A stretch of DNA of 64,000 nt from an uncultured Acidobacteriota bacterium (lineage in GTDB: Bacteria; Acidobacteriota; Thermoanaerobaculia; UBA5066; Gp7-AA6). Shown in pieces: positions 18,311 to 59,825 of the stretch. The translations under genes were made by a program, and so were the position numbers. Where the stretch lies: positions 11,298 to 75,297 of the forward strand of contig CAVXTP010000007.1 in assembly GCA_963764715.1 (NCBI GenBank), in the 5' to 3' direction. The notes beneath the pieces are model-generated. The model worked only from the letters and a program-made list of their open reading frames with translations, did no database searches and was not told the origin of the DNA. The stretch's first letter is position 1, and each line of letters begins with the position of its first letter.

Positions 18311-21062
18311 TCAGGGGAGCTCGAACGTCCGGACGAGGAACGCCGCCATCTGTCCGCGCGTCGCCGCCGCGCCGGGACAGTAGACGCCCGCGCCGCAGCC
18401 TCCGGTGATGCCGCGCGCCGCGAGGTCCTCGATCCAGGGGTCGAAGATCGCGCCCGTGCAGGGAACGTCGGCGAAGACCGTTCCCGTGCAGGCGGGCGGA
18501 AGATAGCCCGAGCCGAGGTCGGTCTTCAGGAGGAAGGCGGACATCTGGGCGCGCGTCACGGCCGACGCCGGACAGTAGTTGCCGCCGCCGCAGCCTCCGG
18601 TGATGCCGCGCGCCGCGAGGTCTTCGATCCAGGGGTCGAAGGGGCCTCCCGTGCAGGGAACGTCGAGAAAGACCGCTCCGGAGCAGGGCGGCGGCGCATA
18701 GCCGGATCCGAGCTTCGACTTGAGCAGGAAGACCGCCATCTGCGCGCGGGTCAGGGAGGCGTTGCGGCAATAGAGCCCGCTACCGCAGCCGGCCGTCACG
18801 CCGTTGCGGACCAGCTTCTCGACGTCGCCGTGGAAGATGTCGCCCTGCGGCGACGTCGAGGAAGTCGGCGAAAAAGCCGCCGGGCAGGGTCCCGGCGAGC
18901 GGGCCGGAGATTTCGAGCGTGACGTCGTAGAGCGTCCCCGGGGGAAGCGCCGGCGTGGTCGCGTCCGCGCTCCCGCCCGACGTGACCGAGGCCAGCGGCG
19001 CCGCGACACCGCCGAACGTGATCGCGGCCCCCAACGCGAAGCCGCTTCCGGCGAGCACGACAGGGGTGCCGCCCGCGGACGGGCCGGACGACGGCGTCAC
19101 GGACGTGACGGTCGGCGGGTCGCCGGTTCCGACGATCGTGAAGATGGAAAAGACGCTCGTGTTCGACTGGCCGTCGGGATTGGTGACGGCGATCGGGTAC
19201 GGCCCGGACGCCGCGCCGGTGGTGTCGAGGTCGAGCGTCAACGACTTGGGACCGTTGTAGGCCACGCCGTTGACCACGACGCCGCCGCCGAGCGACGCCG
19301 CGATCCGCTTCGGAAAGCCGGGACCCGGGTCGAAGTAGTCGCCGTCGAGGGTTCCCGAAACGTCGACGAGGACCGAGGCGAGCCCGACGGACACGCTCGA
19401 CGGCACGGGCGAGACCGGGCGCGGCGGGGGCGGCGCCAGCACCTGCGCCACCTGCACGCCCCACGAGTCGTCGGCGTCGCAGTACTGCTGGATCGTCCAG
19501 AGCGTCATGTCGTCCTCCGGATCGACGCTCGTGAAGGAGTAGTCGCCCCATCGGCGGGGCGAGCCCGGATCCCCCGCCGGGTTGTACGCCGCAGCGGTCG
19601 ACGTGTACTCCACCGGGGGCTGCAGAACGCCGGCCGGGGTCGAGGCCAGGCGTTCCGTGACGGCCGCCTGGATCGGCTGGGCGGCTCCCGCGACGCTCGC
19701 GCCGAGAACGGCGCGGCCCTGGCCGGACACGGCGATCGCCGGCATCCAGTAGAAGCGCGGAGCGGCCGCGGCGGCGTCGAAAAGCGTCCCGGACTGGACG
19801 AGCGAGGGCGTGCCGGTCGAGACGTCGATCTCGTACCAGCGCGACCCGTCGCGGTCGCCGGGGGAATCGCCCGCGCCGTCGACCGCGATGTTGTGCGCGG
19901 TCCAGACGTGCCCGCCGCGCAGGCTCGCCGAGGAGAGCCGGTCGTCGAGCGCGTCGAGCTCCCCGCTCGGGCCGAAGAGGTTGCCGGCGTGAGGGACCGT
20001 CAGCGGCAGCGCCGTCGCCGGGACCGTCAGCGGAAGGTTGGCCGAGATCGAGGCGGGCGGCCAGGCGCCGGGAGCCGCGTACGCGAGCTTTCGAAAAACG
20101 AGCGTTCCGAAGCCGGCATTGTCGACGCCGACGATCCACGACTCGAGCGACGCGGCGTCGAAAAGGTCGTCGACGCCCTGCGGCGTGTAGGGGCCGGAGC
20201 CCGTCGGCGTACCGGTCAGGTTGCGGTAGGCGCGGGCGGCCCCGTTCGCGAGCAGGTTGCCGCCTCCCGACGTCAGGACCTCGCTCTTGCGGAGCGCGTG
20301 GACGGTGACTCCCTGGAAAGCGCCGGCGGCGTCGAAGATGTTGCCGCCGACGAGGAGCGCGTTGGCGTCGACGCCGAGAGACGCCGAGTCGAAGAAGGTG
20401 TTGGTGTCGCCGGCCGGATCGTCGAGGTCGTGCTGGAGGTAGAAGTACGTCCAGACGGTCGCGCCGGAGATGATCCCGTTCGACGCCGCGTCGGTCACGG
20501 CCACGAGCACCCGGTTGCTCCCGGTCTCGAAGGTCAGGGCGGTCACGAACCACCGCGCGGAGAGCCGGTCGTAACGGACGCGCGGCGTCCCCGTCCCGTC
20601 CCCGTTGCGCACGCTCGTGAAGAAGGTGTCGAGGTCGACGTCGAGGACGCCGTCGGCGGCTCCGGAGGCCTTCGCAAACGTGCGGATGCGGCCGTTGACG
20701 CCGACGAGAAACTGGTCCGGCCCGGCCGCCCCCATCGTGTCCGGCGGAAAGGCGCCGGAGTCGGCGAGGGTCGCGCCGAGAAAGCTCATCCCGACGGCGA
20801 GCGGGCTTTCCGGCCCGGCCGCCGCCTCCGGCGCGCGAGAGGCCGTGCCCCGCGGGGACGGCGCACCCGCCCGGAGGTTCCGCCGGTGGGCCGCCCGGCG
20901 CGGCGGAGTCGCGCGTGGCGCCGCTTTCGGCGCTTCGGCCGCGAGGGCCATGAGCTGGCGGACCGAGAGGCGGTACCCGCCCGCGTCGGCGGCGCCGGCC
21001 GTCGCCCGGCCGAGCGCAGCGAGCGCGAGGACGGACGCGGCCGCTCGAATTCTGGAGTGCAT
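18311..21062 (-). pseudogene. Secreted IPT/TIG + triple-SLH protein, frameshifted near 18851
   Basis: ORF 18780..21062 reads ...FFADFLDV then degenerates; SLH continues PQGDIFHGDVEKL in ORF 18311..19009; one extra base at the junction. Confidence 0.8.
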
Positions 21063-22120: not shown

Positions 22121-23152
22121 GGGGTCAGGTCTTCATTTTTCGGATTTTCCGGGGCCCCGGCGGCTTCGCGACAATTCTCTTATGAATGGCTCGACCCTTG
22201 CGCCTCGAGCACGCCGGGGCCCTGTGGCATGTGACGAGCCGGGGGAATGAGCGACGAGCCATCTTCCGGAATGATGCCGACCGGAAGCGGTTTCTGTCGA
22301 TCCTCGCCGACACTGTCGAACGGTTCGCCTGGACGCTCCACGCCTACGTGCTCATGGGGAACCACTACCACCTGCTCCTGGAGACACCCGAGCCCAACCT
22401 TTCTCGCGGCATGCATCGGATCAACGCCATTTACTCGCAAGGGTTCAACAAGCTCCATGAGCGTGCGGGTCACCTGCTGCAGGGGCGCTTCAAGGCAATC
22501 CTGATCGAACGAGAGCCCCATCTGCTGGAGCTCGTCCGATACGTCGTCTTGAATCCGGTGCGCGCCGGGATTGCCGAGAGCGCCGGCGAGTGGCCGTGGA
22601 GCAACTACCGCGCGACCGCGGGACTGCAGCGTCCGCCGCAGTGGCTGGAAACCGCGTGGACCATCGGGCAGTTCGGGGGCGGCGAGGGGGCCCGGACCGC
22701 CTATCGGGAGTTCGTCGCCGCCGGAGCCGCGGGGCTCGCCGAGCCGTGGAAGCGCATTGCGGGTCAGCTCTTCCTCGGTGGCGAAGAATTTCGGCACCGG
22801 ATGCGGGAGCTGGTCAAGAACGTTTCCGTCAGCACGGAAGTGCCACGTGCGCAACGCCTTCCGAGCCGACCGTCGCTGGAGGAGGTCGTCGGCGCGTCGG
22901 CGCGAGTTCTGCAGGTCGACGCTCGCGAGGTCCGTCGACCGAAGCGAACGCCGCTGAGGCTGGCGATCTCCTACATCGCTCGACAAGACACTCTGACGAC
23001 TCTGGCGGATCTCGGAGGCGTCCTGTGCGTTTCGGCGTCGTCCGCCTGCGAGATCGCGGCGTCGGCGAGGCGTCTGCGGCAGCGGTCTCCCGAGTTTCGG
23101 ATGCTCCTGAAGAAGATCCGTTCCGAAATCCGAAAAATGAAGACCTGACCCC
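22121..23152 (+). mobile_element. 1032-bp element: HUH/Y1 transposase between perfect 27-bp terminal inverted repeats
   Basis: 22121-22147 GGGGTCAGGTCTTCATTTTTCGGATTT equals reverse complement of 23126-23152; no target-site duplication seen. Confidence 0.9.
22186..23148 (+). CDS. Y1 (HUH) tyrosine transposase, RAYT-like, with C-terminal HTH extension
   Basis: HVTSRGN, HUH motif NHYHLL, QGRFKA, RYVVLNPVRAG (catalytic Tyr), WPWSNY; stop codon inside the right inverted repeat. Confidence 0.92.
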   Translation: MARPLRLEHAGALWHVTSRGNERRAIFRNDADRKRFLSILADTVERFAWTLHAYVLMGNHYHLLLETPEPNLSRGMHRINAIYSQGFNKLHERAGHLLQGRFKAILIEREPHLLELVRYVVLNPVRAGIAESAGEWPWSNYRATAGLQRPPQWLETAWTIGQFGGGEGARTAYREFVAAGAAGLAEPWKRIAGQLFLGGEEFRHRMRELVKNVSVSTEVPRAQRLPSRPSLEEVVGASARVLQVDAREVRRPKRTPLRLAISYIARQDTLTTLADLGGVLCVSASSACEIAASARRLRQRSPEFRMLLKKIRSEIRKMKT

Positions 23153-23163
23153 ATAATACGTGC

Positions 23164-23841
23164 ATGCGGGTGTGGAAGAAGGTGGTGATCGGGCTCGGCG
23201 TGCTCGTCGTCCTCGCCGTCGGCGGCTTCACCTACATGATCGGCGGCCCGCGCAACCTGATCGGCATGCTGCGCTACGACCAGCGCGAAGAAGGGACGCT
23301 GAAGGTCGGCGACCGGGCGCCAGACGTCGGCCTCATCGCGCTCGACGGCTCGACGCCCGTCCGGCTCTCGAGCGAGCTCGGCGGAAAGCCGACGGTCCTG
23401 ATCTTCGGCAGCTTCACCTGACCCCCCTTCCGCCGCTCGGTCGAGCGGGTCCAGGCGATGCGCCGGAAGTACGCCGACCACGCGCGATTCGTCACGCTCT
23501 ACATCAAGGAAGCACACCCGCTCGACGAGTGGCAGATGGACTCGAACGTCGACGAGGGCGTCTGCTATCCGCAGCCCACGAATCTCGGCGACCGCCTGAA
23601 GATCGCCAACGACTTCGTCCGGCGCTTCCACTACGACGGCCCGATGTACGTCGACCCGATCGAGAACCCGGCCAACGCGGCCTACGCGGGCTGGCCCGAG
23701 CGCCTCTACGTCGTCGACGAGTCCGGCACGATCGTCTACAAGGGCAAGCCGGGGCCCTTCGGGTACCACCCCGAGGAGGTCGAGACCTGGCTCGCGAAAC
23801 GGTTCCCGGAGGTCAGCGCGCCGCCGGCGCCGGCCTCCTGA
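23164..23841 (+). CDS. Iodothyronine deiodinase-like selenoprotein (225 aa; UGA 23419-23421 = Sec86), N-terminal membrane anchor
   Basis: ORFs 23164..23421 and 23458..23841 share a frame; joined sequence VLIFGSFT-U-PPF...YIKEAHP...WPERLYVV...YKGKPGPFGYHPEEV follows the deiodinase consensus. Confidence 0.92.
23433..23448 (+). promoter_or_regulatory. Bacterial SECIS-like hairpin
   Basis: CCGCTC-GGTC-GAGCGG stem-loop beginning after an 11-nt spacer from the UGA; G/GU-containing apical loop. Confidence 0.75.
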
Positions 23842-24313
23842 ACTCGTTGCGCCGTTTCCAGAGGTACACGAGAATCGCCAGGTTGATCGCGAGCAGGACG
23901 TAGCGCCGCGCGCTGCCCGGCCGGCGCGCGATCTCGTAGATCTCGGCCGGCACCGCGGCCGCCGTCAGCAGGATCGTGAGATAGGGCGACCACCAGAGGC
24001 GCAGCAGGAGGCACGTGCCCTCGGCCGCGAAGACGAGCCCGATCACGACGGCGGCGAGGCCGAGCGCCTGGACCTGGCCCGGCGTGAAGGCTGAGAGAAT
24101 CGCGGCGACGTGCCGGACGGTGACCCGCCCTTCGTCGACGCCGAACGCGCGCGCGATCTCCAGGGGCTGGGAGTGGCCGGGCAGCCGGGCGATCCTCAGC
24201 GCGGCCACCCCGACGAGCAGGAAAGCGGCGCATTTGAGGAACTTGAACACGATGATCCCGACGAATCCGGCGGTCAGCGGCGGGCGAGCCGGGGGCGCTC
24301 CGGACGTGGGCAT
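23813..24313 (-). CDS. DUF2127-like membrane protein
   Basis: IIVFKFLK, AEGTCLLL, PAEIYE, INLAILVYL; tail of ORF 23813..25888. Confidence 0.8.
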   Translation of the reverse strand: MPTSGAPPARPPLTAGFVGIIVFKFLKCAAFLLVGVAALRIARLPGHSQPLEIARAFGVDEGRVTVRHVAAILSAFTPGQVQALGLAAVVIGLVFAAEGTCLLLRLWWSPYLTILLTAAAVPAEIYEIARRPGSARRYVLLAINLAILVYLWKRRNEFRRPAPAAR

Positions 24314-24400
24314 GGAAACCCGGAGTGTCCCACACCACCCCCGCGGGGCCCGTTTCCGGTTATGCTCGTCGGGCCCCGTTCGGGGCTTCGGAGGTCCTCG

Positions 24401-26344
24401 ATGTCCCCTGGCTCCACCCCCCGTCGCCGCATCGTCTTCGCGGTCGTCGGGTTTCTGTTCGCCCTCTCTCTCCGGGCCGCCACCTACCAGGCCGGCTCGG
24501 ACGCCGACCTCGCGCGCCGCGCGCCGGTGATCGTCCGGGCCTCGGTCGTCTCGAAGGAAGCGCGTCTCGAAAGCCTCGGCGGCCGGCTGCAGCCCTTCAC
24601 CTTCGTCACGCTGGCGACCCTGGAGAAGATCCGGGGAGAGGTTCCGGCGGCCTTCTCCGTCCGGCTCCCGGGAGGACGCGTCGGGGACACCGTGGCGTGG
24701 ATCCCCGGCACGCCCGTCTTTCGCGTCGGCGCCGAGGTCGTATTGCTCCTCGAGCGCGTCGAGGGGTCCGTGCGGACCTACCGGCTGACCGAGTTCGGCA
24801 TGTCGAAGTTCGACCTCGAGGCGGACGACGACGGACGCGTCTTCGCCGTGCGCCGTGCGTTCGACTCCCGGGAGGACATCGTCGCCGCCGACCGCGGCGA
24901 CGTCCTCGCCGCGCTCGACGAGAAGTCCACGATCCCGGCCCGCGACGCCGAGTCGTTCCTCGCGGCGCTGCGGGCGATCGGCGCCGGGCGGGAGCCGGGC
25001 GAGATCGCGTGGCGCGAGCGGTCGTCGAAGGACGGCGCCGGCCGCCGTCCGAAGTGGAGCAACATCGGCGGACGCGAACCGGGCGACTGCGACACCGACG
25101 GTCCGTGTCTCTTCCGGTGGTTCTGGGACACGGGGGCCTCGGTCGACGGGGTCGTGACCGTGACCGGGACCCAGACGAACCTGACGGCCGACGACGCGGC
25201 GGGCTGCGGCACCGACTCGATCTGCGACGTGCAGAACGGGATCGACGGCTGGACCGGGATCGCGGGGACCCACGTCGTGTACGGCGGCGTGTCGCCGGCG
25301 GGAAACGTGCGGATCGAGCTCGATTCGATCCGGGACTTCAACGGCGGCAGCGCCTGGACGACCGCCCTCGGCTGCGGCGGCGGGGTCATCGGCCTCGGCG
25401 GTCCCATGGAGGCGACCGGGCCCCGCACGTACCGCGGCGACGCCACCTACTACGCGACGCAGAGCGGCAACGTGTCGATGCGCAAGATCACGTGCGCCGC
25501 GGGCTACTCCGCCCGCACCTTCAAGACCGCCGTGATGCACGAGATCGGTCACACCCTCGGCCTCGGGCACCCCGACGACGACGTCAGCACGCACAGCACC
25601 ACCCCGTCGAGTGCGTGGACCGGCGCCGTGATGCACTCCGTCGTCCCCGCTTCGGCGCCCGAGGCCCCCCAGGCCGACGACATCCAGGGCATCGAGTATC
25701 TCTACACGACGGGCCCCCTCGGCACGCTGCCGTCGGCGAGCTTCACGTTCGCGCCGGCCGCGCCGGTCGCGGGCGCCCCGGTCCAGTTCACCGACGGCTC
25801 GGCCGGCGGCACGACGGTCTGGACGTGGAGCTTCGGCGACCCGAGCTCGGGCTCGAGCAACGCCTCGACGGCGCGCAACCCGAGCCACACCTTCGCGTCC
25901 CCCGGCGTCTACACGATCACTCTCGCCGCGGCGAGCCCGAGCGGAACGGGGACGACGTCGAAGACCGTGACGGTCGCGCCGGGATCGACCGCCTCGTGCA
26001 CGCCGAGCACGACGACGCTCTGCCTGAGCAGCAACCGCTTCGCGGTCACGGCCGCCTACCGCTCCAATCAGAGCAGCGGCAACGGAACGGGCACCGAGCT
26101 GACGGCCGACTCGGGCTACTTCACCTTCTTCAGCGCCGCCAACATCGAGGTCGTCGTCAAGGTCCTGAACGCCTGCGGGCTCCAGCCGCCCAGGTTCTGG
26201 GTCTTCGCGGCCGGCCTGACGAACGTCGAGGTCACGCTGACGGTGAGGGACACCGTGTCCGGCGCGGTCAAGACCTACGTCAACCCGCTCGGAACGCCGT
26301 ACGGCCCGGTCCAGGACACGAGCGCCTTCTCGACCTGCCCCTGA
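24401..26344 (+). CDS. Secreted matrixin (M10-like) metallopeptidase with PKD domain and Cys-bounded C-terminal domain
   Basis: GGAGG RBS; HEIGHTLGLGH, AVM Met-turn; WSFGD PKD; C-terminal CL..NRF...FWVFAAGLTNV...AFSTCP. Confidence 0.88.
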   Translation: MSPGSTPRRRIVFAVVGFLFALSLRAATYQAGSDADLARRAPVIVRASVVSKEARLESLGGRLQPFTFVTLATLEKIRGEVPAAFSVRLPGGRVGDTVAWIPGTPVFRVGAEVVLLLERVEGSVRTYRLTEFGMSKFDLEADDDGRVFAVRRAFDSREDIVAADRGDVLAALDEKSTIPARDAESFLAALRAIGAGREPGEIAWRERSSKDGAGRRPKWSNIGGREPGDCDTDGPCLFRWFWDTGASVDGVVTVTGTQTNLTADDAAGCGTDSICDVQNGIDGWTGIAGTHVVYGGVSPAGNVRIELDSIRDFNGGSAWTTALGCGGGVIGLGGPMEATGPRTYRGDATYYATQSGNVSMRKITCAAGYSARTFKTAVMHEIGHTLGLGHPDDDVSTHSTTPSSAWTGAVMHSVVPASAPEAPQADDIQGIEYLYTTGPLGTLPSASFTFAPAAPVAGAPVQFTDGSAGGTTVWTWSFGDPSSGSSNASTARNPSHTFASPGVYTITLAAASPSGTGTTSKTVTVAPGSTASCTPSTTTLCLSSNRFAVTAAYRSNQSSGNGTGTELTADSGYFTFFSAANIEVVVKVLNACGLQPPRFWVFAAGLTNVEVTLTVRDTVSGAVKTYVNPLGTPYGPVQDTSAFSTCP

Positions 26345-59647: not shown

Positions 59648-59725
59648 TGGTGCGCCCGGCGCGATTCGAACGCGCGACCTTTAGCTCCGGAGGCTAACGC
59701 TCTATCCGGACTGAGCTACGGGCGC
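59648..59725 (-). tRNA. tRNA-Arg(CCG)
   Basis: GCGCCCG acceptor stem, anticodon arm TTAGC-CTCCGGA-GCTAA, GTTCGAATC, encoded CCA. Confidence 0.97.
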
Positions 59726-59747
59726 AAAGAACTGACGCGAGAAACTC

Positions 59748-59825
59748 TGGGGTGAGTGGAGGGATTCGAACCCTCGACATCCAGATCCACAATCTGGCGC
59801 TCTAACCAACTGAGCTACACCCACC
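59748..59825 (-). tRNA. tRNA-His(GTG)
   Basis: Encoded G-1, anticodon arm CCAGA-TTGTGGA-TCTGG, GTTCGAATC, CCA end. Confidence 0.97.

What the first reader, a model, noticed from the sequence alone, without database searches (positions are those of the whole stretch)
23164..23841. Hidden bacterial deiodinase-like selenoprotein: in-frame UGA at the catalytic site plus SECIS hairpin
Seen: the two ORFs are in one frame, separated only by TGA 23419-23421. Readthrough gives a TM anchor, then LKVGDRAPD...VLIFGSFT-U-PPF...YIKEAHPLDEW...YAGWPERLYVV...YKGKPGPFGYHPEEV. After an 11-nt spacer there is a hairpin CCGCTC-GGTC-GAGCGG. Known: vertebrate iodothyronine deiodinases have FGS(C/A)TUP, YIEEAH, ERLY and YKG..GP..Y and an N-terminal membrane anchor; the E. 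coli fdhF SECIS has an 11-nt spacer and a GGUC-containing loop. Inference: a membrane-anchored Sec-dependent reductive dehalogenase for an unknown halogenated aromatic. It has Phe where DIO1/DIO3 have the proximal Cys. Deiodinase-like bacterial selenoproteins have been predicted before, but I know of no established substrate. Standard annotation would split it into two hypothetical genes.
Basis: partly seen in the sequence, partly recalled or inferred. Interest (0 to 1): 0.88.

Follow-up and report, generated by a model that had tools for sequence, protein, structure and literature searches.

The report
Bacterial deiodinase-like selenoprotein gene
This is a real gene for a selenium-containing, membrane-anchored enzyme related to the animal thyroid-hormone deiodinases; the bacterial family was predicted in 2005, is usually mis-annotated as a fragment, and still has no known substrate.

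Summary
Window 23164-23841 (+) is one reading frame with a single in-frame TGA at 23419-23421. A 6-bp hairpin with a GGUC loop starts 11 nt after it.

- **Family:** the read-through protein (225 aa) matches Pfam T4_deiodinase at 121.9 bits. Its AlphaFold model is closest to mouse Dio3 and Dio2.
- **Sec machinery:** the genome has tRNA-Sec (UCA), selA, selB and selD. It also has two formate-dehydrogenase genes whose TGA is followed by GGUCU-loop hairpins.
- **Conservation of the TGA:** it sits at the same codon in 30 of 30 loci fetched from this genus (own genome included) and in 80 of 80 best loci from other species (Acidobacteriota, Planctomycetota, Polyangia).
- **Selection:** dN/dS is about 0.22 on both sides of the TGA.
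- **Hairpin:** it covaries across lineages. Cys-form relatives exist.
- **Limit:** taken alone, the window's hairpin is not statistically unusual.

So this is a genuine UGA-Sec selenoprotein with a SECIS, not two genes or a pseudogene. It is not new in kind: bacterial "deiodinase-like" selenoproteins were predicted in 2005 and are listed in reviews. The dehalogenase function remains an untested inference. Part of the Dio catalytic network is kept (Ser, Thr, Tyr, Glu, His, Trp, Glu). The second His, both Dio3 cysteines and the Arg clamp are not. Cultured Polyangium strains carry orthologs, so the function can be tested.

The parts
23164..23841 (+). Complete coding sequence of the deiodinase-like selenoprotein (225 aa plus terminal TGA), read through one internal UGA
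   Evidence: Pfam PF00837 at 121.9 bits over aa 42-213. Full-length orthologs at 75-89% identity cover residues 1-225.
23167..23241 (+). N-terminal hydrophobic helix (residues 2-26), predicted membrane anchor; orientation not resolved
   Evidence: Helix 2-26 in the AlphaFold model. The hydrophobic N-terminus is conserved in full-length homologs. Flanking charges point one way in this protein and the other way in some homologs (my reading of alignment A1).
23404..23430 (+). Active-site motif F-G-S-F-T-U-P-P-F (residues 81-89)
   Evidence: Aligns with FGSCT(U>C)PPF of mouse Dio3 4tr3 and FGSAT(U>C)PPF of Dio2 9h48. S83, T85, U86, P87, P88 and F89 are invariant in 81 of 81 Sec-form sequences; residue 84 is F in 47 and Y in 34.
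23419..23421 (+). UGA codon 86, read as selenocysteine
   Evidence: TGA at this codon in 30 of 30 loci fetched from this genus, own genome included, and in 80 of 80 best loci of other species. TGT or TGC stands here in Cys-form relatives. tRNA-Sec, selA, selB and selD are in the genome.
23433..23448 (+). SECIS hairpin: stem 23433-23438 with 23443-23448, apical loop GGUC at 23439-23442; 11-nt spacer, 17 nt between UGA and loop
   Evidence: Local fold. In 58 distinct sequences 90.9% of cells pair, against 31-63% when the partner is slid; 3 pairs show compensatory changes; 0 of 500 shuffles reach the covariation score. The same genome's two FdhA-type selenoprotein genes have GGUCU loops 18 nt after their UGA.
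23500..23577 (+). Deiodinase-specific insertion (residues 113-138) with Y113, E116, H118, W123, C134 and P138
   Evidence: Aligns with Dio3 Tyr197, Glu200, His202 and Trp207; P138 stands in place of His219. All six residues are invariant in 81 of 81 sequences. pLDDT is low at 121-123.
23563..23565 (+). Cys134 codon (TGC): the only other Cys, and a candidate resolving cysteine for this clade
   Evidence: Invariant in 81 of 81 Sec-form sequences of this clade. In a wider set it is present in 18 of 36 TGA-form loci and 0 of 6 TGT/TGC-form loci. Its role is inference only; no distance to Sec86 could be measured.

Best explanation
Window 23164-23841 encodes one 225-residue selenoprotein of the iodothyronine-deiodinase family.

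Translation (supported by comparative evidence): SelB carrying Sec-tRNA(Sec) is expected to bind the mRNA hairpin at 23433-23448 (6-bp stem, GGUC loop, 11 nt after the UGA). This inserts selenocysteine at codon 86 instead of terminating.

Protein (shown in silico): an N-terminal hydrophobic helix is followed by a thioredoxin-fold domain with the deiodinase-specific insertion. Sec86 sits in the T-U-P-P-F motif at the start of helix 1. Around it are Ser83, Thr85, Tyr113, Glu116, His118, Trp123 and Glu179, the counterparts of the Dio3 proton-relay and substrate-site residues.

Chemistry (inferred, about 0.4): the selenolate attacks a halogen on a phenolic or aromatic compound. That compound is not a thyronine, because the carboxylate-clamp Arg is missing. 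The attack releases the dehalogenated ring after protonation and leaves a selenenyl halide. The enzyme is then reduced again, either through the clade-invariant Cys134 or by an external thiol, because the two Dio3 cysteines (168 and 239) are absent.

The gene stands alone, with no conserved partner gene.
For: - **Frame and motifs:**
- **Family:** PF00837 E 3.4e-35, 121.9 bits against a cut-off of 27. PDB sequence matches are Dio3 4tr3 (E 1e-25) and Dio2 9h48 (E 1.1e-20). The AlphaFold model has pLDDT 85.9. Its best fold matches are 4tr3 (E 2e-15, TMt 0.80) and 9h48 (6.5e-15, TMt 0.81); the next class, ResA/DsbE-type, starts at 2.4e-9.
- **Sec machinery in the same 96.8%-complete genome:** tRNA-Sec at 66.4 bits with anticodon TCA, selA 460 bits, selB 311 bits, selD 378 bits. 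Two FdhA-type genes carry an in-frame TGA followed by GGUCU-loop hairpins.
- **TGA conserved:** 34 of 36 other genomes of the genus have the ortholog, each with an in-frame TGA. It is at the same codon in the 30 of 30 loci fetched and in 80 of 80 best loci across three or more phyla. Of the 42 strong matches (E <= 1e-20) in a 401-genome phylum sample, 40 carry a TGA.
- **Selection:** median dN/dS is 0.219 upstream (27 pairs) and 0.230 downstream (28 pairs) of the TGA.
- **Cys/Sec exchange:** 11 of 14 full-length database relatives have Cys at this position. TGT/TGC loci L166-L170 are the DNA examples.
- **SECIS covariation:**. A hairpin of 5 bp or more is present in 105 of 106 distinct Sec-form sequences. 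In metagenome contigs, 23433 C>G and 23448 G>C were both listed in run X2, which fits the G-C form of the outer pair seen; whether both lie on one contig was not shown.
- **Catalytic residues:** invariant in 81 of 81 sequences. Their roles in Dio come from passages of PMC11592359.
Against: - No experiment: Sec insertion, membrane location and activity are all unverified.
- The window's hairpin is not significant on its own (z -0.35; 27% of synonymous recodings give 6 bp or more). It is not the MFE structure of the 62-nt stretch.
- My loose hairpin criterion also passes 5 of 8 Cys/Trp-form loci at 5 bp or more, though only 1 of 8 at 6 bp or more, against 89 of 106 Sec-form sequences.
- No Rfam family matches.
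- Against the dehalogenase step: His219 of the Dio relay is Pro in 81 of 81 sequences, Cys168 is Phe or Tyr, Cys239 is aliphatic, and Arg275 is absent.
- Cys134 is missing from more distant Sec-form subfamilies, present in only 18 of 36 TGA loci.
- No conserved neighbour hints at a substrate.
- The 2005 authors proposed only a general redox role (PMC1088965).
- JGI names the full-length Cys forms 'peroxiredoxin'.
Confidence: 0.9

Rival explanations
1. The protein is a genuine selenoprotein, but it works as a peroxidase or thiol-disulfide oxidoreductase (peroxiredoxin/TlpA/ResA-like) and not as a dehalogenase. Sec86 would reduce a peroxide or a disulfide or selenenylsulfide partner. The deiodinase-like residues would be an ancestral redox scaffold that animals later recruited for thyroid hormones.
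For: - Thioredoxin fold. After Dio3 and Dio2, the next fold matches are ResA, DsbE and 1-Cys Prx.
- Weak Redoxin hit: 25.0 bits against a cut-off of 26.6.
- JGI labels the Cys forms 'peroxiredoxin'.
- The original authors suggested a redox function, since thyroid hormones are not expected in bacteria (PMC1088965).
- The Dio mechanism itself is described as peroxiredoxin-like (titles and passages).
- His219 and Arg275 are absent.
- An N-terminal anchor followed by a Trx fold is the ResA/TlpA layout (weak NCBIfam ResA hit).
Against: - The features that set deiodinases apart from Prx and TlpA are invariant in 81 of 81 sequences across phyla: T-U-P-P-F, the insertion with E-A-H-P-x-D-x-W, Tyr113 and Glu179.
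- The Dio matches are about six orders of magnitude better than any Prx or ResA match.
- The Pfam Redoxin score is below its cut-off.
Confidence: 0.35
2. The TGA is a true stop. The locus would then be a pseudogene, two separate small genes, or an assembly or sequencing error.
For: - Under table 11 the frame is split into 85-aa and 127-aa ORFs.
- Public gene calls give mostly the C-terminal fragment.
Against: - TGA is at the same codon in 30 of 30 loci fetched from this genus and in 80 of 80 loci of other species.
- dN/dS is about 0.22 on both sides.
- The stop falls exactly at the catalytic Sec/Cys position of the family.
- The first ORF would end inside the thioredoxin fold.
- Contigs from two unrelated metagenome studies bridge the site, and no change is listed there. 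71 further difference rows were not shown, so this is weak support.
Confidence: 0.01
3. UGA is read through as an ordinary amino acid (Trp, Gly or Cys), either by a reassigned code or by near-cognate suppression, without selenocysteine.
For: - Three full-length database relatives show W at this position.
- One metagenome locus has a real TGG there (L175).
Against: - The gene's own stop (23839-23841) and the upstream gene's stop (23146-23148) are TGA.
- The genome carries a complete Sec system and FdhA genes with UGA at the canonical Sec site.
- A covarying hairpin follows the UGA only in TGA forms.
- The three W forms carry the clade markers of Sec forms: Cys134 and hairpin-compatible peptides. 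They may therefore be TGA translated under another table; I did not check their DNA.
Confidence: 0.02

Closest known systems
Bacterial 'deiodinase-like protein' selenoprotein family (Zhang, Fomenko and Gladyshev 2005, Sargasso Sea; listed in the 2022 and 2026 prokaryotic-selenoproteome reviews)
   Same: - A bacterial PF00837 protein with an in-frame UGA.
- A bacterial SECIS with a G in a small apical loop directly downstream.
- Cys-containing homologs exist.
- Function unknown.

Sources: passages of PMC1088965, PMC9312934 and PMC13188914; my tests.
   Different: - The reviews give the motif as UxxC. This clade is U-P-P-F, with no Cys at +3 (81 of 81), as in vertebrate Dio2 and Dio3.
- The 2005 set was 4 marine sequences. 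This one is from a soil-type Acidobacteriota (Thermoanaerobaculia-like) lineage.
- The clade spans Acidobacteriota, Planctomycetota and Polyangia.
- A full-text search for 'deiodinase-like' with 'Acidobacteria' found 0 papers.
Vertebrate iodothyronine deiodinases Dio3 and Dio2 (PDB 4tr3, 9h48)
   Same: - Best sequence and fold matches.
- Sec in T-U-P-P-F.
- N-terminal membrane helix.
- Deiodinase insertion.
- Counterparts of Ser167, Thr169, Tyr197, Glu200, His202, Trp207 and Glu259 are conserved.
   Different: - Only 30-34% identity.
- The SECIS lies in the coding region right after the UGA (bacterial type), not in a 3' UTR.
- His219 is replaced by Pro, Cys168 by Phe/Tyr, Cys239 by Ile/Leu/Val and Arg275 by Pro/Met/Leu/Thr.
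- Thyroid hormones are not expected substrates.
NCBIfam NF038285 'deiodinase_rel' (deiodinase family protein, 347-position model)
   Same: Strong local similarity: 193.9 bits over model positions 177-340.
   Different: The score is below the curated cut-off of 250, and only the C-terminal half of the model is matched. The window protein has a 40-residue anchor and linker in place of that family's roughly 175-residue N-terminal part.
Membrane-anchored thiol-disulfide oxidoreductases ResA / TlpA / DsbE and 1-Cys peroxiredoxins
   Same: N-terminal anchor followed by a thioredoxin fold. They are the second tier of fold matches.
   Different: - No CxxC motif.
- Pfam Redoxin is below its cut-off.
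- The deiodinase insertion is present.
- The E-values are about 10^6 worse than for Dio3 and Dio2.
Bacterial SECIS of formate dehydrogenase mRNAs (E. coli fdhF type)
   Same: - A hairpin immediately 3' of the UGA.
- The UGA-to-loop distance of 17 nt is within the 16-37 nt stated in PMC10778597.
- The small loop contains G-G-U-C, like the GGUCU loops of this genome's own two FdhA genes.
- The 11-nt spacing and GGUC loop of E. coli fdhF are recalled, not checked in a call.
   Different: - The stem is short (6 bp, or 7 in many relatives) and has no bulged U.
- Within the family there are two registers: stem columns 14-20/25-31 with a 4-nt loop, and 17-24/28-35 with a 3-nt loop.

Membership tests
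Iodothyronine deiodinase family (Pfam PF00837) | Profile score above the curated gathering cut-off over the catalytic domain | tested here: met
   121.9 bits against 27; aa 42-213 on model positions 69-236 of 237. It is the only PF00837 match in the genome.
Iodothyronine deiodinase family (Pfam PF00837) | Thioredoxin fold with the deiodinase insertion; closest solved structures are deiodinases | tested here: met
   Model pLDDT 85.9. Foldseek ranks 1-2 are Dio3 4tr3 and Dio2 9h48 (TMt 0.80 and 0.81, E about 1e-15); the next class starts at 2e-9.
Iodothyronine deiodinase family (Pfam PF00837) | Sec (or Cys) in the motif G-S-x-T-U-P-x-F | tested here: met
   FGSFT-U-PPF aligns with FGSCT(C)PPF of 4tr3. 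Invariant in 81 of 81 sequences.
Iodothyronine deiodinase family (Pfam PF00837) | Proton-relay and substrate residues (Dio3 Ser167, Thr169, Tyr197, Glu200, His202, His219; Glu259; Arg275 clamp) | tested here: inconclusive
   Ser, Thr, Tyr, Glu, His202 and Glu259 are conserved. His219 is Pro and Arg275 is not conserved. Roles come from passages of PMC11592359. The Glu259 role and the Dio3 numbering offset are partly recalled or derived from the 4tr3 alignment.
Iodothyronine deiodinase family (Pfam PF00837) | Reductive deiodination of iodothyronines | not testable with these tools
   Needs an enzyme assay.
Iodothyronine deiodinase family (Pfam PF00837) | Single N-terminal membrane anchor | tested here: met
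   Hydrophobic helix at residues 2-26 in the model, conserved in homologs. Membrane insertion and orientation were not tested.
Bacterial deiodinase-like selenoprotein (Zhang et al. 2005) | In-frame UGA aligned with Cys in homologs | tested here: met
   Cys in 11 of 14 full-length relatives. TGT/TGC in L166-L170. TGA in 80 of 80 loci.
Bacterial deiodinase-like selenoprotein (Zhang et al. 2005) | Bacterial SECIS downstream of the UGA with G in a small apical loop | tested here: met
   Criteria are from PMC1088965 and PMC10778597.
Bacterial deiodinase-like selenoprotein (Zhang et al. 2005) | Redox motif UxxC, as tabulated in the reviews | tested here: not met
   The motif here is U-P-P-F, with Phe at +3 in 81 of 81 sequences. 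The reviews' tables list UxxC.
Bacterial deiodinase-like selenoprotein (Zhang et al. 2005) | Host genome has the Sec-decoding trait | tested here: met
   tRNA-Sec, selA, selB and selD all score above their cut-offs. FdhA genes carry UGA.
NCBIfam NF038285 deiodinase_rel | Score above the curated cut-off over the full model | tested here: not met
   193.9 bits against 250; only model positions 177-340 of 347 are matched.
Peroxiredoxin / Redoxin (PF08534, PF00578) | Score above the gathering cut-off | tested here: not met
   PF08534 scores 25.0 bits against 26.6. PF00578 is not reported for the window protein.
Bacterial SECIS element | Binding by SelB and Sec insertion | not testable with these tools
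   Needs a reporter or 75Se experiment. Rfam has no matching family.

The most novel reading that the evidence does not exclude
This clade is a true selenium-dependent, cofactor-free reductive dehalogenase of natural iodinated or brominated phenolics, unrelated to the corrinoid dehalogenases. The clade is defined by T-U-P-P-F plus the invariant Cys134 and is widespread in soil Acidobacteriota, Planctomycetota and Polyangia. On this reading it represents the bacterial stock from which animal thyroid-hormone deiodinases arose, and Cys134 acts as a resolving cysteine that animals replaced with Cys168 and Cys239.
Probability: 0.3. Interest if true: 0.75.

Novelty: new member of a known kind. Interest (0 to 1): 0.4.

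Why it matters
The gene is a clean, well-supported example of a selenoprotein that standard annotation truncates: 106 of the 120 listed database relatives are C-terminal fragments.

No bacterial member of the family has a tested activity in the papers I could search, even though the family was predicted about twenty years ago. Knowing what these enzymes do would bear on two questions:
- where the vertebrate thyroid-hormone deiodinases came from;
- whether soil bacteria have a selenium-based route for removing halogens from aromatic compounds.

This analysis adds four practical points:
- The clade is common in soil phyla.
- It has a covarying SECIS in two registers.
- It keeps most, but not all, of the Dio catalytic network, and it carries its own invariant cysteine.
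- Cultured Polyangium strains hold orthologs at 61-69% identity, so labelling and enzyme assays are feasible.

Tried and rejected
- **Thermodynamic significance of the window's hairpin:** not significant. The synonymous-recoding null was also not significant (27% of recodings give 6 bp or more). I rely on comparative evidence instead.
- **Rfam:** no family at gathering threshold other than two tRNAs. Only chance-level hits around the UGA at E <= 10.
- **Gene neighbourhood:** I clustered all stop-to-stop ORFs of 90 aa or more in the flanks (up to 3 kb each side) of 80 loci. The only clusters found in more than 16 loci overlap the gene itself (other frames or the other strand). The best real neighbour cluster is in 12 loci, so there is no conserved partner. 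The window's neighbours (FmdA_AmdA, Y1_Tnp, DUF2127, M10/PKD peptidase) suggest no pathway.
- **Promoter and terminator scan:** nothing found.
- **Membrane orientation:** flanking charges favour N-in for the window protein but not for several homologs (my reading). Left unresolved.
- **Expression:** no RNA holder listed. Two runs labelled cDNA but flagged 'probably DNA' gave only short pieces of relatives, which is no evidence either way.
- **Sequencing runs:** they hold at most 0.27 of the sampled words, so they are relatives and not this strain. Two contigs bridge the TGA with no difference listed there, but 71 difference rows were not shown.
- **Pseudogene, two-gene and reassigned-code readings:** rejected; see the rival explanations.
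- **W at the Sec position:** the DNA behind the three database proteins (P0012, P0017, P0045) was not examined.
- **Supplements:** They may hold the 2005 sequences and SECIS alignments, which would settle the UxxC against UPPF question.

Unpublished genomes: G042 and G084, G109 and G211 (their loci L139, L154 and L158 are among the rows) are included in the tallies of those calls.
Full report
**1. The observation**

- On the + strand an ATG at 23164 opens a frame that runs to a TGA at 23839-23841. It is interrupted once, by TGA at 23419-23421.
- Table-11 ORF listing gives two ORFs in that frame: 23164-23421 (85 aa) and 23458-23841 (127 aa).
- Reading TGA as U gives a 225-residue protein. It has a hydrophobic N-terminus...VLIFGSFT-U-PPFRRSVER..., YIKEAHPLDEW, YAGWPERLYVV and YKGKPGPFGYHPEEV.
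- Eleven nucleotides after the TGA lies CCGCTC-GGTC-GAGCGG (23433-23448).
- This hairpin is the local minimum-energy structure of the 37-nt stretch, at -13.2 kcal/mol.
- By itself it is unremarkable. The z-score is -0.35 against shuffles, a different fold wins for the 62-nt stretch, and 1332 of 5000 synonymous recodings of the same peptide give a stem of 6 bp or more.
- The case therefore has to rest on comparison.

**2. What the protein is**

- Pfam T4_deiodinase (PF00837) matches at E 3.4e-35, 121.9 bits (cut-off 27), over residues 42-213. Redoxin scores just below its cut-off.
- NCBIfam NF038285 'deiodinase_rel' matches locally (193.9 bits) but below its cut-off of 250, and only over the C-terminal half of a 347-position model.
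- Among solved structures, the only strong sequence matches are mouse Dio3 (4tr3, E 1e-25) and Dio2 (9h48, E 1.1e-20).
- An AlphaFold model built on a 15-sequence alignment has mean pLDDT 85.9 and pTM 0.81. It shows a long N-terminal helix (residues 2-26).
- Foldseek ranks Dio3 and Dio2 first (E about 1e-15, TMt 0.80 and 0.81). ResA, DsbE and Prx-type proteins start six orders of magnitude behind.
- It is the only PF00837 match in the genome.

**3. Is the UGA read as selenocysteine?**

*Machinery.* The window lies in a 4.36-Mb, 96.8%-complete assembly.
- It holds a tRNA-Sec (66.4 bits; anticodon TCA by ARAGORN), selA (460 bits), selB (311 bits, with a separate match to the C-terminal end of the model in the same 635-aa frame) and selD (378 bits). 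All are above their curated cut-offs.
- The same genome has two formate-dehydrogenase-alpha-type genes with one in-frame TGA each, in the contexts ...CNRT-U-HAPS... and ...HQARL-U-HSPT.... Each is followed by a strong hairpin whose loop is GGUCU, 18 nt after the UGA.
- A Redoxin-family gene also carries an in-frame TGA.
- So the Sec system is in use here, and the loop motif of the hairpin in question matches that of the genome's canonical selenoprotein mRNAs.

*Conservation of the TGA.*
- In a draw of 60 relatives, 34 of 36 other genomes of the same genus have the ortholog (75-89% identity), each with an in-frame TGA. Four genomes of a sister family have it at 56-58% identity with one TGA, and a fifth has it in split pieces.
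- A motif scan placed the TGA at the identical codon in 29 of the 30 loci fetched. The 30th (L030) has U-P-L-F and also carries TGA at codon 86.
- A scan of one genome per species found 363 related loci. The best 80 come from Acidobacteriota (Thermoanaerobaculia, Holophagales, Acidiferrales), Planctomycetota, Polyangia including cultured Polyangium isolates, and one labelled Pseudomonadota. All 80 have TGA at this codon.
- In an even sample of 401 genomes of the phylum, queried with a Cys-form protein, 40 of the 42 matches at E <= 1e-20 carry one in-frame TGA.

*Selection.* Against the congeneric orthologs, median dN/dS is 0.219 for codons 44-85 (27 pairs; one skipped for an indel) and 0.230 for codons 87-215 (28 pairs). 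Both sides of the TGA are therefore under the same purifying selection. This excludes a pseudogene or two unrelated ORFs.

*Cys/Sec exchange.*
- Of 14 full-length database relatives, 11 have Cys and 3 have W at this position.
- A metagenome scan with a Cys-only alignment returned loci with TGT or TGC (L166-L170, plus two distant ones), 8 loci with TGA, and one with a real TGG.

*Contigs from public runs.*
- Contigs of related organisms from two separate metagenome studies bridge the TGA, and no difference is listed there. This is weak support, because 71 rows were not shown.
- In run X2, 23433 C>G and 23448 G>C were both listed. That fits the G-C form of the hairpin's outer pair seen, although whether both changes lie on one contig was not shown.

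**4. The SECIS**

*Main type.* I aligned 45 nt from the TGA for 61 sequences of the 'RRSVER' type (58 distinct).
- Taking the stem as columns 14-20 with 25-31, 90.9% of cells pair, against 31-63% when the 3' partner is slid by 1-3 columns.
- Three pairs show changes on both sides (for example C-G, G-C and A-U at the outer pair, and U-A to G-C).
- 0 of 500 shuffles reach the observed covariation score.
- Third-codon positions inside the core and the loop are invariant or nearly so. Third positions of the two Pro codons just upstream vary freely.

*Second type.* In 20 sequences of a second type (mostly Acidiferrales) the peptide differs (RRQIGD, RREVGY and others).
- A hairpin is again present, shifted by about 4 nt (columns 17-24 with 28-35, loop GGN).
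- 93.1% of cells pair, against 27-54% when slid, and four pairs show compensatory changes.
- Five of these 20 (RRQVGD type) fold better in the register of the first type, which accounts for most of the unpaired cells.

*Overall.*
- Of 106 distinct Sec-form 48-mers, 105 have a hairpin of 5 bp or more with a G-containing loop, and 89 have one of 6 bp or more. The stem starts 7-14 nt after the UGA, most often 10-11 nt.
- My criterion is loose. 5 of 8 Cys/Trp-form loci also pass at 5 bp or more, but only 1 of 8 at 6 bp or more.
- The geometry fits published criteria. The UGA-to-loop distance here is 17 nt, within the 16-37 nt range, and the loop is small and contains G (passages of PMC10778597 and PMC1088965).
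- Rfam has no matching family.

**5. Catalytic residues**

The 4tr3 alignment fixes the numbering: chain index plus 113 equals Dio3 numbering, checked on Cys168 and Sec170. With an 81-sequence alignment of Sec forms it gives the following.

| Window residue | Dio3 counterpart | State in 81 Sec-form sequences |
|---|---|---|
| Ser83 | Ser167 | invariant |
| Thr85 | Thr169 | invariant |
| Sec86 | Sec170 | invariant |
| Tyr113 | Tyr197 | invariant |
| Glu116 | Glu200 | invariant |
| His118 | His202 | invariant |
| Trp123 | Trp207 | invariant |
| Glu179 | Glu259 | invariant |
| Pro138 | His219 | Pro in 81 of 81 |
| Phe84 | Cys168 | Phe 47, Tyr 34 |
| Gly159 | Cys239 | Ile, Leu or Val in 78 of 81 |
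| Pro196 | Arg275 (proposed carboxylate clamp) | Pro, Met, Leu or Thr in 75 of 81 |

- The roles of the relay residues and of Arg275 come from passages of PMC11592359.
- The only other cysteine, Cys134 in the deiodinase insertion, is invariant in this clade (81 of 81).
- In a wider set Cys134 is present in 18 of 36 TGA-form loci and in 0 of 6 TGT/TGC-form loci. It is therefore a clade-specific candidate for a resolving cysteine, not a family-wide feature.

**6. How it most likely works**

*Supported by comparison:*
- UGA86 is recoded to Sec by SelB through the hairpin at 23433-23448.
- The product is a single-pass (or signal-anchored) deiodinase-fold protein with Sec at the catalytic position.

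*Inferred:*
- The retained deiodinase-specific network, which Prx and TlpA proteins lack, suggests the same type of chemistry as Dio. A selenolate would attack a halogen on a phenolic ring, with protonation of the leaving carbon.
- The missing Arg clamp points to a substrate without the amino-acid tail.
- Regeneration would go through Cys134 or an external thiol.
- I put this at about 0.4, a peroxidase or thiol-redox role at about 0.35, and something else at the rest.

*Unresolved or negative:*
- Orientation in the membrane is unresolved.
- No partner gene is conserved next to it. The window's own neighbours are an acetamidase/formamidase-family gene, an IS200-like Y1 transposase-family gene 15 nt upstream, a convergent DUF2127 membrane protein that overlaps the 3' end, and a PKD-domain metallopeptidase.

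**7. Comparison with what is known, and novelty**

- Bacterial deiodinase-like selenoproteins, with Cys homologs and bacterial SECIS elements, were predicted from the Sargasso Sea data in 2005. There were 4 Sec sequences, and the function was suggested to be 'redox' (passages of PMC1088965).
- They are tabulated in the 2022 and 2026 reviews with Pfam PF00837 and the motif UxxC. Those reviews say the functions of such proteins remain largely unknown (passages).
- This locus is therefore a new member of a known kind. It differs in four ways:
  - the U-P-P-F motif (vertebrate-like, not UxxC);
  - the clade-invariant Cys134;
  - the soil-phyla distribution;
  - two SECIS registers within one family.
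- Full-text searches for 'deiodinase-like' with 'Acidobacteria' found 0 papers. A search for a characterised bacterial homolog or dehalogenase found nothing relevant. Papers outside the searchable library, and the supplements, were not seen.
- Annotation does hide the gene: 106 of the 120 best database relatives are 123-149-aa C-terminal fragments.

**8. Verdict**

- The interpretation as a hidden selenoprotein with a SECIS is supported (confidence about 0.9-0.95).
- The interpretation as a dehalogenase is plausible but untested.
- Interest is moderate (0.4). A specialist would not be surprised by the gene. But the family's function is a twenty-year-old open question, and the cultured Polyangium carriers make it directly testable.

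Unpublished genomes G042, G084, G109 and G211 are included in the tallies. No claim depends on them alone.

Noticed in passing
window 22186-23148 (+): A 320-aa ORF with an IS200-like Y1 transposase domain (PF01797, 41.2 bits, aa 14-120) ends 15 nt before the selenoprotein start. Its roughly 200-aa C-terminal extension has no Pfam match. It is not found next to the orthologs in other phyla.
   Followed up: partly
window 23813-24400 (-): A DUF2127 membrane protein (78.2 bits) converges on the selenoprotein gene and overlaps its last 29 nt.
   Followed up: no
window 24407-26344 (+) and 18780-21062 (-): A secreted-looking metallopeptidase (HExxH; weak M10/M12 hits) with a PKD domain, and a 760-aa protein with an IPT/TIG domain. 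Many long overlapping ORFs on both strands are typical of high G+C content.
   Followed up: no
window 59648-59824 (-): tRNA-Arg(CCG) and tRNA-His(GTG) lie side by side. They are the only Rfam gathering-level hits in the window.
   Followed up: no
own genome, L191 (G000:C11:66204-68066) and L192 (G000:C18:39522-40286): Two formate-dehydrogenase-alpha-type genes with an in-frame TGA at the canonical Sec site, each followed by a strong SECIS hairpin with a GGUCU loop. The second lies on the same contig as selB, about 22 kb away.
   Followed up: partly
own genome, L202 (G000:C6:239245-239643): A Redoxin-family (peroxiredoxin-like) gene with an in-frame TGA in ...PKADTPG-U-TIEGC..., followed by a 7-bp hairpin with a GUU loop. 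It is probably another selenoprotein.
   Followed up: partly
L175 (metagenome locus), codon aligned with Sec86: A relative has a real TGG (Trp) where the others have TGA or TGY, in an otherwise Cys-form-like sequence (FGSFT-W-PPFRRNTPD). It may be an inactive or repurposed copy. Three database proteins also show W there, but their DNA was not seen.
   Followed up: no
L148 (G335:C94): One Sec-form relative has S-C-T-U-P-P-F, that is, a Cys two residues before Sec as in Dio1 and Dio3. The others have Phe or Tyr there.
   Followed up: no
table (for example G171 and G383, four matches each): Many weak thioredoxin-fold matches (E 1e-8 to 1e-11) in Acidobacteriota genomes also carry one in-frame TGA. 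This hints at several further Trx-like selenoprotein families in this phylum.
   Followed up: no
alignments A2 and A3 (45 nt from the TGA): Within one protein family the SECIS occupies two registers about 4 nt apart, with different loops (GGUC against GGN). The RRQVGD subgroup uses the first register with an unrelated stem sequence.
   Followed up: partly
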